From a virus (lineage: Duplodnaviria; Heunggongvirae; Uroviricota; Caudoviricetes), in the IMG/VR virus record IMGVR_UViG_2698536476_000008: DNA of 64,000 bases, one strand, 5' to 3'. Within the stretch, counting starts at the first letter, position 1, and the number at the start of each line of letters is the position of its first letter. Made by a program: the position numbers and the translations under genes. Shown piece by piece: positions 4,259 to 5,075 of this stretch. The notes under the pieces were generated by a model, which made no database searches, was not told the DNA's origin, and saw only the letters and a program-made list of their open reading frames with translations.

Positions 4259-5075
4259 GCACAACAGGTAAGGGTATTTTGCGACGTCGGAGATCGCCGA
4301 GCTTGGCAGAGGGTTCGAATCCCTACGAAGTACCCTTACCGTTGTGATGAATGCGCAGGCTGATGCGCGAAAGACATTGCAGCTATTGCGGAAAAGAGCT
4401 GTTCGGCGGGGCAATTAAACGCCCGTGAGAGTCTGAAATAACCGCAAGCCGGAGATCAGCACCGGTCATCACAACACAACAGGTAAGGGCATTCTCCCTT
4501 ATGGGGCTTGGCTTAAATGCATCGAGTGCTCTTACCGTTGTGATGAAGTGCAGCTCTTTGAAGCAACCAGAAGATAAGCATCTGGCTTCACAACATAAAC
4601 CGCAGGAACGACCAATAAACGGTAGTCCGTATGGAGAACACCCCGTTGAGGAAGAGGCCTGGCCGGAACCGTAACCGGCACTACAACGTTGAGAACACTG
4701 GCGTAACGGGGTCATATCCCAATCTACGAATAAATGTTGCGTTGCAGCGTGACAACCAGTGTTCTCAACATTGTGGTGAATGCACAGGCTGATGTGCCGC
4801 AACTACAGTAGTGCGCGCTTTGCGGGGCTTGCTACAACCCTGTGTCGGAGTTCAGCACCGACCATCACAGTTTGATTCTCTGGCATGAGCATAACGCTGA
4901 AATAAGTCCAGCCTGGTGCGGCCCGATCACCCGCCGTTAGCTCCACGAAACGGAGCACGTAACAGGTAAGAGCATTCTCCTGTAACGGGTTCATATCCCA
5001 ATCTACAGGTCCACCAAGAATGCTCTTTCCGTTGCGGTGAATGCGGCTAAGCGCACGCGGGGAAATGGTTATATC
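4259..5075. repeat. Tandem array of about four diverged units, each a long-stem hairpin (stem core ACAACAGGTAAGRGC ... GCYCTTACCGTTGTG) with variable loop plus conserved trailer GRTGAATGCRCAGGCTGATGYGC
   Basis: Inverted repeats at about 4262-4345, 4477-4553, 4697-4775, 4958-5040; trailer boxes at 4345-4369, 4775-4798, 5037-5060. Confidence 0.6.

What the first reader, a model, noticed from the sequence alone, without database searches (positions are those of the whole stretch)
4267..4340. 74-nt tRNA-like element with a canonical T-arm inside the first hairpin unit
GGTAAGG at 4267-4273 pairs perfectly with CCTTACC at 4334-4340, like an acceptor stem, and encloses GGTTCGAATCC (4312-4322), a textbook T-stem-loop. 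The whole element is 74 nt, tRNA-sized, but lacks a recognisable anticodon arm and a CCA end. It could be a decayed tRNA gene or a tRNA-mimic.
Basis: seen in the sequence. Interest (0 to 1): 0.5.

Follow-up and report, generated by a model that had tools for sequence, protein, structure and literature searches.

The report
Phage hairpin RNA with tRNA-like tip
The flagged 74 bases are not a tRNA gene but the top of a conserved ~87-base hairpin, carried by phage P1 relatives and by unrelated phages, whose tip copies the D-arm/T-arm core of a tRNA without an anticodon; its function is still unknown.

Summary
GGTAAGG (4267-4273) pairs with CCTTACC (4334-4340), and GGTTCGAATCC (4312-4322) occurs once in the window. 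But the 7-bp stem is the middle of a 21-bp stem (4260-4346), so the tRNA-like size is coincidental. The window is a P1-like phage. The element starts 2 nt after tRNA-Thr in the repressor-controlled ban-operon leader.

ARAGORN and the Rfam tRNA model reject it: no anticodon arm, no CCA end. It is not decaying either. The same core occurs in at least 109 viral contigs and 464 of 5,426 E. coli genomes, in at least seven flanking contexts. Its stem changes by compensatory substitutions (10 of 21 pairs), and G·U outnumbers A·C 129:26, which points to an RNA on the tRNA strand. The annotated opposite-strand ORFs plp and upl show no codon signal.

The stem is a widespread scaffold (CACAACAGGTAAGAGCATTG…CAGTGCTCTTTCCGTTGTGGTGAATGC) that encloses dozens of unrelated 25-95-nt inserts. 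No Rfam family or retrieved paper describes it.

Best reading: a conserved tRNA-core mimic on a scaffold hairpin, co-transcribed with phage tRNAs or late genes. Function and interior fold are inferred, not shown.

The parts
4260..4346 (+). Whole hairpin unit U1: outer helix 4260-4265/4341-4346, bulged A4266, inner helix 4267-4281/4326-4340, tRNA-like interior 4282-4325
   Evidence: MFE fold z = -5.2. 10 of 21 stem pairs show changes on both sides across 17 variants, 95% of cells are paired, and 0 of 500 shuffles reach the observed score. The covariance model scores 109.8 bits on + against 21.4 on -.
4309..4325 (+). T-arm-like hairpin: stem A4310-G4313 / C4321-T4324 (plus a G4309.A4325 mismatch), loop TTCGAAT 4314-4320; it directly abuts the 3' strand of the long stem
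   Evidence: The sequence occurs once in the window. The identical 19-mer occurs in three genuine phage tRNAs, L221, L222 and L225. It is invariant in every scaffold-type copy found by a D-half-anchored scan.
4282..4296 (+). D-arm-like hairpin: CGA 4282-4284 / TCG 4294-4296, 9-nt loop CGTCGGAGA containing GG
   Evidence: Invariant apart from two loop changes and one single-contig stem change. The stem is replaced by GCA/UGC in the L142-type payload. Thermodynamic prediction does not favour it in this variant (P = 0.01), so it remains inferred.
4297..4306 (+). Small middle hairpin CCG/TGG with a 4-nt loop, at the position of an anticodon arm but far too small to be one
   Evidence: Loop sequence and length vary freely, 4-7 nt. 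The closing pair alternates A-U and G.U.
4339..4368 (+). Conserved 3' flank of the scaffold: CCGTTGTGATGAATGC followed by the small hairpin GCGCAGGCTGATGCGC
   Evidence: It recurs after all four downstream units (7 matches against 1.1 expected).
4105..4180 (+). tRNA-Asn(GTT), a genuine tRNA in the same transcript
   Evidence: ARAGORN and Rfam, 74.5 bits.
4183..4258 (+). tRNA-Thr(TGT), a genuine tRNA; its CCA end lies 2 nt before the first paired base of U1
   Evidence: ARAGORN and Rfam, 73.4 bits; sequence.
3818..3904 (+). Scaffold unit U0 (same arms, different interior), upstream of the tRNAs
   Evidence: Inverted repeat I2; fold z = -5.4; model 18.9 bits.
4466..4546 (+). Scaffold unit U2 (interior CTCCCTTATGGGGCTTGGCTTAAATGCATCG); absent from P1 itself
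   Evidence: Fold z = -5.8; model 37.0 bits; P1 lacks window 4352-4524; the same interior recurs in other phages.
4679..4778 (+). Scaffold-like unit U3 with diverged arms (CACTACAACGTTGAGAACACTGG / CCAGTGTTCTCAACATTGTGGTG)
   Evidence: Inverted repeat I1, 23 nt, 91% complementary; fold z = -8.3.
4955..5040 (+). Scaffold unit U4 (interior with the GGGTTCATATCCCAATCTAC motif)
   Evidence: Fold z = -6.1; model 34.3 bits. In L028 and L076 the same flanking context holds the tRNA-like interior instead.
4449..4465 (+). Small hairpin CCGGAGATCAGCACCGG that precedes the next unit; similar small hairpins precede the tRNAs and other units
   Evidence: Direct-repeat family D2. The same syntax sits in front of tRNA-Ser in phage D6.
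3613..3640 (+). Intrinsic terminator ending the 'dicF-like' short RNA, downstream of the C1-controlled ban promoter; everything listed above needs read-through of it or an unrecognised promoter
   Evidence: Terminator scan; P1 annotation of Pban, its operators and the dicF-like region.

Best explanation
The element is the apical part of an ~87-nt structured RNA cassette. It is not a tRNA gene. A conserved ~20-bp scaffold helix is shared by a large family of hairpins in phages of enterobacteria, and here it carries a tRNA-derived core: a D-arm-like hairpin, a vestigial middle hairpin and a canonical T-arm in tRNA order, with the T-arm stacked on the scaffold helix where an acceptor stem would be.

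It is transcribed on the tRNA strand as part of a long noncoding leader. In P1-like phages that is the repressor-controlled ban operon, directly after tRNA-Thr. In lambdoid phages it is the late-operon leader between Q and the holin, directly after the first terminator.

Shown: the long helix is under selection for pairing on the + strand, the core sequence is conserved across unrelated phages and contexts, the region is not protein-coding, and the element is not a decodable tRNA.

Inferred: the core folds into a tRNA-like elbow (D-loop GG contacting the T-loop), and the host's tRNA-recognising machinery treats it as tRNA-like (RNase P, TruB/TrmA, or another elbow-binding factor), while the long duplex is a double-strand-specific processing and stability scaffold (RNase III type). 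The most likely outcome is excision of a stable small RNA. That RNA would either punctuate the polycistronic transcript (in P1, freeing the 3' end of tRNA-Thr) or titrate or recruit a tRNA-binding factor. I rate these two sub-mechanisms as about equally likely.
For: Genome and context: the window is 99.8% identical to a P1-like phage, and the P1 annotation places the region between Pban and ban.

Structure: the fold has z = -5.2. The long stem shows changes on both sides at 10 of 21 pairs, 95% of cells paired, 0 of 500 shuffles reaching the observed score, and slid controls of 32-53%. One copy (L093) has an entirely different stem sequence around the same core.

Strand: there are 129 G.U against 26 A.C in 78 distinct scaffold arm pairs, and the model scores 109.8 bits on + against 21.4 on -.

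Conservation: the core occurs in 109-118 viral contigs and in 464 of 5,426 E. coli genomes, in at least seven upstream contexts. The T-arm is invariant in all scaffold-type copies found without requiring it, while the middle loop and the junction-proximal stem pairs vary.

tRNA likeness: the T-arm 19-mer is shared with real phage tRNAs. T-arm motifs are enriched among scaffold interiors, 3 of 37 families against 0.1 expected. An independent payload (L142-type) aligns helix for helix with compensatory differences in the D-like, middle and T helices.

Noncoding: plp and upl show codon-position counts of 18/17/20 and 9/12/8, against 19/11/91 for ban and 7/3/80 for the lipoprotein gene.

Expression context: in 16 of 26 non-P1 loci the unit lies between a Q-like antiterminator gene and the holin, 13 nt after a strong terminator in L016.
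Against: There is no expression, processing or binding data for this element; every functional step is inferred.

The interior fold is unresolved. RNAalifold prefers a rival pairing, UCGGA/UUCGA. Ensemble probabilities for the T-arm helix range from 0.01 to 0.92 across natural variants, and the D-like helix is near 0 in this window's variant.

Interior covariation comes from one lineage (L142-type), which may be an independent tRNA-like sequence rather than a homolog, and from an alignment fitted to the model.

There is no spacer at tRNA positions 8-9, no CCA, and the helix continues past 7 bp, which is unfavourable for RNase P (established knowledge; see also PMC4201824 on the 7-bp requirement).

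Most scaffold interiors are not tRNA-like, and most non-P1 units have no tRNA gene nearby, so the scaffold's role is not tRNA-specific.

High sequence identity across phages could partly reflect recent horizontal spread rather than long-term purifying selection.
Confidence: 0.55

Rival explanations
1. Neutral relic. A tRNA gene fragment (D-arm and T-arm, with the anticodon region deleted) was trapped inside a palindromic repeat by illegitimate recombination in a tRNA-rich region. It now hitch-hikes with the mobile scaffold and has no function of its own.
For: It lies next to real tRNA genes in a region where units are gained and lost between relatives: P1 lacks 4352-4524, Ro157c2YLVW lacks U1, and D6 has a tRNA-Ser instead. 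Truncated or damaged copies exist, L271 and L223. Other uncalled tRNA-like remnants occur in phage tRNA regions (L007). The middle 'anticodon' hairpin is unconstrained. The high identity could reflect recent spread.
Against: The core is invariant across at least seven contexts and three virus types, while adjacent positions change repeatedly and the stem changes by compensation. Among P1-like relatives the interior has fewer variable sites than the neighbouring functional tRNA genes. A second, unrelated payload has the same layout. T-arm motifs are about 30-fold enriched among scaffold interiors.
Confidence: 0.17
2. DNA-level element. The hairpins are imperfect palindromic repeats (ERIC/MITE-like, or recombination hot spots) that act as DNA, shuffling modules between phages. 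The interior is whatever passenger sequence was captured.
For: There are multiple copies per genome, in intergenic positions. Unrelated interiors are swapped within identical flanks. Indels coincide with unit boundaries or repeated arms. The elements occur in unrelated phage lineages.
Against: The strand asymmetry, 129 G.U against 26 A.C, with a conserved U.G and a conserved U.U mismatch and bulged A, is what an RNA structure predicts, not a DNA cruciform. All units share the orientation of the tRNAs and downstream genes. The units sit in highly transcribed leaders. This rival also does not explain conservation of the tRNA-like core. It is compatible with the best explanation as the mechanism of spread.
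Confidence: 0.15
3. Protein-coding on the opposite strand. The element is part of the plp gene ('putative lipoprotein'), as annotated in the P1 reference genome.
For: In the P1 record, plp (69472-69849, minus strand) overlaps the element. RCS47 annotates Plp and Upl over the neighbouring units.
Against: Variable sites show no codon-position bias in plp (18/17/20, p = 0.88) or upl (9/12/8, p = 0.64), whereas ban and the lipoprotein gene show a strong third-position excess (p = 1e-21 and 6e-28). The ORF's 3' part differs between P1 and this window because of a cassette indel. RefSeq PGAP annotates nothing under 473 copies.
Confidence: 0.02
4. attP-type tRNA fragment: a copy of the 3' end of a host tRNA gene kept by an integrating phage to restore the tRNA after integration.
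For: tRNA 3' fragments (T-arm plus acceptor strand) are common in temperate phages (established knowledge), and copies of the element occur in integrating lambdoid phages.
Against: A sensitive search of 5,426 E. coli genomes with the interior plus 3' strand returned only full-length copies of the element. It returned no partial match to any tRNA gene, and 466 of 475 places are on plasmids. At this database size a short T-arm-only match would not be reported. The lambdoid copies lie between Q and the holin, not at an integrase or att site. The fragment includes a D-arm-like 5' part and sits inside a hairpin.
Confidence: 0.02

Closest known systems
YrlA / bacterial Y RNA-like tRNA mimics (Rfam RF02553; PMC4201824)
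   Same: A noncoding RNA in which a long helix formed by the 5' and 3' parts carries a tRNA-like domain with a canonical T-arm and a D-arm. [quoted passage not shown] It has no anticodon and does not decode.
   Different: There is no RF02553 match on the element. No Ro60/Rsr gene is nearby. The Ro-binding GNCGAAN0-1G motif is absent from the 5' strand. The arm order is D then T, as in tRNA, not the permuted T then D of YrlA, so the long helix replaces the acceptor stem rather than the anticodon stem. It is carried by phages of hosts such as E. coli, which lacks Rsr (from knowledge).
tRNA genes and tRNA pseudogenes or fragments in phage tRNA clusters
   Same: Canonical T-arm sequence, D-loop-like GG hairpin, tRNA order of the arms, T-arm abutting the 3' strand of the closing helix, and a location next to real tRNA genes.
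   Different: There is no anticodon arm, no 7-bp acceptor stem with a free 3' end, and no CCA. ARAGORN and the tRNA covariance model reject it. It is conserved rather than decaying.
tRNA-like processing signals (plant mitochondrial t-elements, mascRNA, and the RNase P-processed C4 RNA precursor of P1/P7); from my own knowledge, not tested here
   Same: Partial tRNA mimics embedded in longer transcripts that serve as RNase P or RNase Z cleavage signals. P1 itself is known to use RNase P for a non-tRNA (C4 RNA; its gene is in this window at 34196-34283).
   Different: Those elements have an accessible acceptor-like end. Here the helix continues for 21 bp, and no cleavage has been shown.
STnc100 / PasD prophage sRNAs (Rfam RF02076; bioRxiv 10.64898/2026.05.13.724894)
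   Same: Noncoding RNAs of lambdoid late-region leaders. The module at window 5033-5153, which begins with the scaffold's 3' flank GGTGAAT, gives a partial STnc100 match.
   Different: The match is below the family threshold (37.8 against 47 bits), lies about 700 nt downstream, and does not cover the finding. Those sRNAs are not described as tRNA-like.
ERIC/IRU-type imperfect palindromic repeats of enterobacteria (from my own knowledge)
   Same: About 100-nt imperfect palindromes, multi-copy, located in transcribed intergenic regions, sometimes with internal insertions.
   Different: The sequence is different. The elements are confined to phage genomes here, and they have hypervariable interiors with recurrent, conserved payload families.

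Membership tests
tRNA gene (Rfam RF00005 / ARAGORN) | Recognised by a tRNA covariance model or ARAGORN | tested here: not met
   ARAGORN calls 4105-4180, 4183-4258 and 6259-6334 only. Rfam tRNA does not hit 4259-4350 at the gathering score or at E <= 10.
tRNA gene (Rfam RF00005 / ARAGORN) | 7-bp acceptor stem with a free 3' end (discriminator + CCA, or a processing site) | tested here: not met
   The helix runs 15 + 6 bp (4260-4281 / 4326-4346). No CCA follows the seventh pair, and the sequence there is not conserved between variants.
tRNA gene (Rfam RF00005 / ARAGORN) | Anticodon arm (5-bp stem, 7-nt loop) | tested here: not met
   There is only a 3-bp hairpin with a 4-7-nt loop of variable sequence at that position.
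tRNA gene (Rfam RF00005 / ARAGORN) | T-arm with a TTCRANN loop adjacent to the 3' acceptor strand | tested here: met
   AGGG/TTCGAAT/CCCT at 4310-4324, one base before the 3' strand. The 19-mer is identical in real phage tRNAs.
tRNA gene (Rfam RF00005 / ARAGORN) | D-arm (3-4-bp stem, 8-11-nt loop with GG) | tested here: inconclusive
   CGA/UCG with loop CGUCGGAGA fits the definition, and GCA/UGC replaces it in the L142-type payload. But it has low thermodynamic probability in this variant (0.01), a rival pairing exists, and there is no spacer at positions 8-9.
YrlA / Y RNA-like (RF02553) | Match to the family covariance model at the gathering score | tested here: not met
   The only YrlA hit in 3400-5400 is 27 bits (gathering score 69) and lies across the two real tRNAs at 4125-4242, not on the element.
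YrlA / Y RNA-like (RF02553) | Encoded within about 2 kb of a Ro60/Rsr gene (PMC4201824) | tested here: not met
   The annotated neighbours in P1 and RCS47 are dmt, tciA-C or a lipoprotein gene, tRNAs and ban; there is no Rsr. I did not run a TROVE-domain search on the window's ORFs.
YrlA / Y RNA-like (RF02553) | GNCGAAN0-1G Ro-binding motif in the stem (PMC4201824) | tested here: not met
   It is absent from the 5' strand GCACAACAGGTAAGGGTATTTTG. The 3' flank GGTGAATG differs at the conserved C and lies outside the helix.
YrlA / Y RNA-like (RF02553) | tRNA-like domain (T-arm + D-arm) mounted on a long terminal helix | tested here: inconclusive
   The architecture is similar, but the arm order is D then T, not T then D as in the YrlA consensus (alignment). 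The interior fold is not proven.
Phage attP tRNA-gene fragment | Sequence identity with the 3' end of a host tRNA gene | tested here: not met
   blastn with word size 11 and E <= 10 against 5,426 E. coli genomes returned 473 records, all full-length copies of the element and none on a tRNA gene. Short identities (below roughly 20 nt) would not be reported.
Phage attP tRNA-gene fragment | Located at the attachment site next to an integrase gene | tested here: not met
   The lambdoid copies lie between the Q-like gene and the holin. The P1-like copies lie in the ban leader.
STnc100 (RF02076) | Match at the gathering score that covers the element | tested here: not met
   A partial match of 37.8 bits (gathering score 47) lies at 5033-5153 only.
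Protein-coding gene plp/upl (P1 annotation) | Third-codon-position excess of substitutions among relatives | tested here: not met
   Counts are 18/17/20 and 9/12/8, against 19/11/91 and 7/3/80 in the control genes.
HK022-type put RNA antiterminator | Sequence similarity to the HK022 early-region put elements | tested here: not met
   There is no meaningful blastn-short match between window 3400-5200, or the mEp460 and BUCT554 leaders, and HK022 24000-36000. A structural similarity was not tested.

The most novel reading that the evidence does not exclude
The finding is one payload of a previously undescribed, widespread class of phage-borne modular RNAs. A conserved ~20-bp scaffold helix, with an invariant bulged A and a U.U mismatch suggestive of a protein-binding or processing site, displays interchangeable 25-95-nt RNA domains. 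These occur in tandem arrays within highly transcribed early or late leaders of P1-like, lambdoid, P22-like and Ackermannviridae phages. The payload repertoire, including at least two anticodon-less tRNA-core mimics, would be a shuffled toolkit of small RNAs acting on host machinery, for example tRNA-processing or tRNA-targeting defence factors. In logic it would resemble Y RNAs, which combine a conserved stem with variable effector loops.
Probability: 0.3. Interest if true: 0.85.

Novelty: new variant of a known kind. Interest (0 to 1): 0.6.

Why it matters
Phage P1 is a classic model, yet the 1.3 kb between its ban promoter and the first protein gene is still annotated with two doubtful ORFs. 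The evidence here indicates that this stretch is an array of structured RNA cassettes, one of them a conserved tRNA-core mimic present in about 9% of complete E. coli genomes and in unrelated phages.

If the mimic engages RNase P, tRNA-modifying enzymes or a tRNA-directed defence nuclease, it would add a new type of tRNA mimicry to phage-host conflict. That would sit alongside the phage tRNA genes, which in other phages are thought to counter tRNA-cleaving defences (from my own knowledge, not tested here).

The scaffold family gives a concrete and abundant set of unannotated phage noncoding RNAs that can be tested directly with Northern blots, RNase mutants and deletions in a tractable system. 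It also argues for removing plp and upl from P1-type annotations.

Tried and rejected
1. tRNA gene: rejected by ARAGORN and by Rfam at both gathering and permissive thresholds.

2. Any curated RNA family over the units: none in the window or in 14 related loci. The miRNA-precursor hits are generic long-hairpin matches below threshold.

3. Degenerate scan (GTCGGAGATCGCC N4-16 AGNNNNTTCRANTNNNNT): it returned 0 hits, although it should have included the 109 earlier matches. I treat this as a tool or pattern-syntax problem, not a negative result; one scan was wasted.

It is useful only to show that scaffold-type copies keep the T-arm.

5. HK022 put-like RNA antiterminator: no sequence similarity.

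6. Payloads as mimics of rRNA or rrn-operon RNAs: the top scores equal those of the shuffled controls.

7. Scaffold as a holder of complete tRNAs: 0 of 290 units enclose an ARAGORN call.

8. Scaffold as an obligatory tRNA-processing appendage: 58 of 69 units in non-P1 loci have no same-strand tRNA in the locus.

9. attP fragment of a host tRNA: no partial matches.

10. plp and upl as real genes: no codon signal.

11. Thermodynamics to settle the interior fold: inconsistent across natural variants.

12. Species-representative genomes: only one hit, so no host-lineage signal.

13. Literature searches (STnc100; P1 ban operon and tRNA; tRNA-like, prophage and T-arm; P1 transcriptome; phage-plasmid hairpin): nothing describes the scaffold or the element. 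The P1 genome paper is not held in the library.
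Full report
**What the window is.** The region 3600-5200 is 99.8% identical to Escherichia phage vB_EcoM-813R1 and 99.5% identical to RCS47. It is 98.6% identical to phage P1 over 87% of its length. In the P1 reference annotation this is the leader of the ban operon. The order is: the C1-repressor-controlled promoters P1ban and P2ban, a 'dicF-like region', tRNA-Asn, tRNA-Thr, two minus-strand ORFs (plp and upl), tciA-C (replaced by a lipoprotein gene in RCS47 and in this window), tRNA-Ile(CAT), and ban. ARAGORN and Rfam find exactly three tRNAs in the window: 4105-4180, 4183-4258 and 6259-6334. The finding begins 9 nt after the CCA of tRNA-Thr.

**Checking the observation.** GGTAAGG (4267-4273), CCTTACC (4334-4340) and GGTTCGAATCC (4312-4322) are all present as described.
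- The exact 11-mer occurs once in the window. Its only one-mismatch relatives are the T-arms of the two adjacent real tRNAs.
- By my calculation, about 0.03 exact copies are expected by chance.
- The segment folds far better than shuffled sequence (z = -3.7 for 74 nt and -5.2 for 92 nt), and the minimum-energy fold contains a 4-bp/7-nt T-arm hairpin.
- However, pairing does not stop at 7 bp. Positions 4267-4281 pair with 4326-4340, and after a bulged A4266, positions 4260-4265 pair with 4341-4346.

**It is one of a series.** Four more hairpins with the same or related arms lie at 3818-3904, 4466-4546, 4679-4778 and 4955-5040. Each is followed by GTG(A/G)TGAATGC plus a small hairpin, and each is often preceded by a small hairpin such as CCGGAGATCAGCACCGG. 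Relatives differ by whole units:
- P1 itself lacks 4352-4524.
- Ro157c2YLVW lacks the finding's unit and has an extra tRNA-Tyr.
- D6 has a tRNA-Ser placed between a small hairpin and a scaffold hairpin.

**It is not a tRNA gene, an attP fragment or part of a protein gene.**
- *tRNA gene:* the tRNA finders reject it even at permissive thresholds.
- *attP fragment:* a sensitive search of 5,426 complete E. coli genomes with the interior plus 3' strand returned 473 records. All were full-length copies of the element, 466 of 475 places were on P1-sized plasmids, none matched a host tRNA gene, and none was annotated.
- *Protein gene:* the opposite-strand ORFs plp and upl, which overlap the element in P1 itself, show no codon-position bias among about 70-100 aligned relatives (18/17/20 and 9/12/8). 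The neighbouring real genes show a strong third-position excess (ban 19/11/91, lipoprotein 7/3/80).

**The element is conserved and mobile.**
- *Abundance:* the core GTCGGAGATCGCC-N(4-16)-AGAGGGTTCGAATCCCT occurs in 109 IMG/VR contigs of very different sizes.
- *T-arm half alone:* a scan for it finds 118 contigs. These add scaffold variants with different outer arms, and they include three genuine phage tRNAs with the same T-arm.
- *D-like half alone:* a scan for it shows that every scaffold-type copy retains the exact T-arm. The other hits are chance matches in GC-rich coding DNA.
- *Contexts:* the 33-plus distinct variants sit in at least seven upstream contexts. These are: after tRNA-Thr; after three kinds of small hairpin; directly after terminator T-runs; and, in L093, inside a completely different stem.
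- *Named phages:* Enterobacter phage BUCT554, a P22-like podovirus, has a copy at 87.5% identity between its portal and terminase genes.
- *Stem selection:* in an alignment of 17 distinct variants, 10 of the 21 stem pairs show changes on both sides. The pair next to the junction runs through U.G, C-G, G.U, G-C and A-U. In all, 95% of cells are paired, no shuffle in 500 reaches the observed covariation, and slid controls give 32-53% pairing.

**The stem is a family-wide scaffold.**
In these, the same arms (CACAACAGGTAAGAGCATTG … CAGTGCTCTTTCCGTTGTGG) enclose dozens of unrelated interiors of 25-95 nt. There are 37 payload families among 69 units, and some recur in different phages. The interiors of this window's U2 and U4 are among the recurrent ones. 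In L028 and L076 the U4-type flanking context holds the tRNA-like interior instead.
- *Strand:* across 78 distinct arm pairs there are 129 G.U pairs against 26 A.C. There is also a conserved U.G, a conserved U.U mismatch (59 of 78) and a bulged A. This asymmetry indicates selection on the + strand, which is the tRNA strand, as expected for an RNA.
- *Model scores:* a covariance model built from the finding-type alignment scores 109.8 bits on the + strand of the element and 21.4 on the reverse. It scores 30-40 bits on generic scaffold units.
- *Prior description:* no Rfam family covers these units, and my literature searches found no description of them.

**How tRNA-like is the interior?** Read 5' to 3', the interior has four parts:
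1. CGA[CGUCGGAGA]UCG, a hairpin whose 9-nt loop resembles a D-loop (GG at loop positions 5-6).
2. CCR[4-7 nt]YGG, a vestigial hairpin of variable loop at the anticodon-arm position.
3. A 3-nt linker.
4. GAGGG[UUCGAAU]CCCUA, a canonical T-arm with one G.A mismatch, directly followed by the 3' strand of the long helix. This is the geometry of T-arm and acceptor stem in a tRNA.

The order is that of a tRNA. Three lines of evidence support selection for this layout:
- T-arm motifs are enriched in scaffold interiors, at 3 of 37 families against 0.1 expected.
- An unrelated payload (L142-type, four contigs) aligns helix for helix with different base pairs: D-like CGA/UCG becomes GCA/UGC, and the T-stem AGGG/CCCU becomes GCGG/CCGC. 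With it added, every interior helix shows double changes with pairing kept.
- The natural U-to-C change in the D-like loop (L150, L220, L224, L228) would break the rival pairing but is neutral in the cloverleaf-like fold.

The limits are real:
- The interior covariation comes from one lineage and from a model-fitted alignment.
- RNAalifold prefers a rival UCGGA/UUCGA helix.
- Ensemble probabilities for the T-arm helix range from 0.01 to 0.92 among natural variants: 0.65 for this window, with the D-like helix near 0.

I therefore regard the tRNA-core sequence motifs as shown, and the tRNA-like three-dimensional fold as plausible but unproven.

**Where it is expressed.** In the window, the only clean intrinsic terminator on the + strand is at 3613-3640, at the end of the dicF-like RNA, and no strong promoter consensus lies downstream. 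The tRNAs and units therefore appear to depend on read-through from the repressor-controlled ban promoter, or on an unrecognised promoter.

Outside P1-like phages, 16 of 26 loci with the tRNA-like unit share the same neighbourhood:
- NinG about 2 kb upstream (PF05766, E = 3e-73).
- A Q-like antiterminator gene about 1 kb upstream (phrog_753, E = 2e-67).
- A holin at +575 (phrog_1350).
- A lysozyme at +874 (PF00959).

This is the leader of the lambdoid late operon. In L016 the order is: Q stop, a pR'-like promoter, a short RNA with a strong terminator, 13 nt, the unit, and then a module that is 88% identical to window 3644-3711. The P1 ban leader is thus a mosaic of the same modules as lambdoid late leaders. 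From established knowledge, that slot is where Stx phages carry tRNA genes. In mEp460 and 720R4, other scaffold units lie just downstream of the cI gene. In the 157-kb Klebsiella phage T751 they lie in a 3.3-kb gene-free stretch that ends in a tRNA.

**Mechanism.** The evidence shows a strand-specific, pairing-constrained helix, a conserved tRNA-derived core, noncoding status, and placement in abundant phage transcripts. My inference is as follows:
- The long duplex, with its conserved bulge and mismatch, serves as a processing and stability scaffold of the RNase III-substrate type.
- The core presents a tRNA elbow to the host's tRNA-recognising machinery.
- The product is then either a punctuation site or a stable small RNA that binds a tRNA-recognising factor. 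As a punctuation site in P1, it would release the 3' end of tRNA-Thr, as a downstream tRNA does in polycistronic tRNA operons. I rate the two outcomes as about equally likely.

RNase P cleavage is not assured, because the helix extends beyond 7 bp and lacks CCA. The YrlA paper reports cleavage only for the member with a 7-bp acceptor stem (PMC4201824). The scaffold itself is not tRNA-specific: no unit encloses a complete tRNA (0 of 290), and most non-P1 units have no tRNA nearby.

**Comparison with known systems.** The closest concept is YrlA, the bacterial Y-RNA-like tRNA mimic: a long terminal helix plus T- and D-arms, sometimes co-transcribed with tRNAs. The element fails every membership test for that family. 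There is no model match, no Rsr gene nearby and no GNCGAAN0-1G motif, and the arm order is unpermuted. It works somewhat like tRNA-like processing elements, and P1's own C4 precursor is an RNase P substrate (from knowledge), but no cleavage has been shown here. STnc100 and PasD are relevant only to a neighbouring module at 5033-5153, which gives a sub-threshold match (bioRxiv 10.64898/2026.05.13.724894).

**Verdict.** The element is best classed as a new variant of tRNA mimicry, embedded in an apparently undescribed family of scaffold hairpins. Function is inferred only, so I set interest at 0.6.

Noticed in passing
window 4383-4802 (-) and 4803-5132 (-): The ORFs annotated as plp ('putative lipoprotein') and upl in P1 and RCS47 overlap the palindromic units and show no codon-position bias among relatives (18/17/20 and 9/12/8). 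They are probably not genes. RefSeq PGAP already leaves the region unannotated.
   Followed up: yes
window 5033-5153 (+): There is a partial, sub-threshold match to the prophage sRNA family STnc100 (37.8 bits against 47). The module is closed by UGCGGUG/CACCGCA and ends in the hairpin CCGGGAGGCACCCGG, just upstream of the first protein gene. Similar 'GTGATGAATGC … small hairpin … TCATCAC' modules lie between the scaffold units at 4341-4475, 4537-4596 and 4770-4871.
   Followed up: partly
window 3644-3711 (+); L016 986-1052; L007 2340-2400: The module GCGACTTTGCGG…TTTAGAAACTGACC…AAATGCAAACGAT, which follows the dicF-like terminator in the P1 ban leader, is 88% identical to a module in a lambdoid late-operon leader. 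It is also present in an Ackermannviridae Klebsiella phage. The ban leader is a mosaic of the same noncoding modules as lambdoid Q-to-holin leaders.
   Followed up: partly
window ~3544-3645 (+): The 'dicF-like region' of P1 ends in a strong intrinsic terminator (3613-3640), directly downstream of the repressor-controlled promoter. This layout mirrors the promoter, short RNA and terminator (pR', short RNA, tR') seen in the lambdoid late leader of L016. How transcription reaches the tRNAs and ban past this terminator is not explained by anything I saw.
   Followed up: no
L007 2137-2203 and ~3155-3172 (Klebsiella phage T751): There is a free-standing 67-nt tRNA-like sequence with a 7-bp acceptor stem (GGCGAAG/CTTCGCC), a D-like hairpin, a tiny middle hairpin and a T-arm (ATGGTTCGATTCCAT). 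It has no anticodon arm and ARAGORN does not call it. A second T-arm-bearing segment lies further on. Anticodon-less tRNA-like sequences may be a recurring feature of phage tRNA regions.
   Followed up: no
scaffold stems generally (e.g. window 4266, and 4269/4338 in sibling units): A bulged A between the outer and inner helix and a U.U mismatch two pairs further in are conserved in most scaffold variants (U.U in 59 of 78 distinct arm pairs). This window's U1 has a U-A pair at that position instead. The pattern looks like a specific recognition feature.
   Followed up: partly
L142, L159, L170, L209 (and L122, L118/L182, L119, L086/L116): Other scaffold interiors carry their own canonical T-arms (GCGGTTCGATTCCGC, GTGGGTTCAACTCCCAC, TAGGGTTCGACTCCCTG, and others). 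In one family the T-arm sits at the 5' side of the interior rather than the 3' side.
   Followed up: partly
window 4703-4727 and 4982-5006; many loci: The motif GTAACGGG(G/T)TCATATCCCAATCTAC is shared by U3 and U4. In the form ACGGGCCCATAACCCAATCCACG it occurs in the most common payload family of other phages and in mEp460. Its meaning is unknown.
   Followed up: no
L006 2270-2450 and L005 2330-2500: The lambdoid phage mEp460 and the P22-like phage BUCT554 share a conserved noncoding leader (…GGCACATGYGTCGT…GGTAGCCGGAATGTGCAAGTCA…ACCAGCGTGGCGAT…) upstream of their first scaffold unit. In BUCT554 the whole ~700-nt array ends at a + strand terminator (2910-2926).
   Followed up: no
L003 1988-2693 (phage D6 record NC_050154): The three tRNAs are annotated on the opposite strand from the one on which ARAGORN finds them. 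This is probably a strand error in the record.
   Followed up: yes
L002 2458-2620 (Ro157c2YLVW): A 162-nt insertion between two units carries a 42-aa ORF annotated as a hypothetical protein. Its status is unknown.
   Followed up: no
L271 (- strand, ~1500-1600) and L223: A truncated copy keeps only the D-like half, joined to another module. Another copy has a G-to-A change in the D-like stem. So damaged copies do exist.
   Followed up: no
window 34094-34283 (+): An isrK-like match (60.8 bits) lies immediately upstream of the C4 antisense RNA (75.9 bits), in the P1 immI region. From my own knowledge, the C4 precursor is an RNase P substrate, which is a precedent in this genome for tRNA-like processing of a non-tRNA.
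   Followed up: no
window 6259-6334 (+): ARAGORN and Rfam call this tRNA Met(CAT). The P1 record annotates the homologous gene as tRNA-Ile2 (ileX-like).
   Followed up: no
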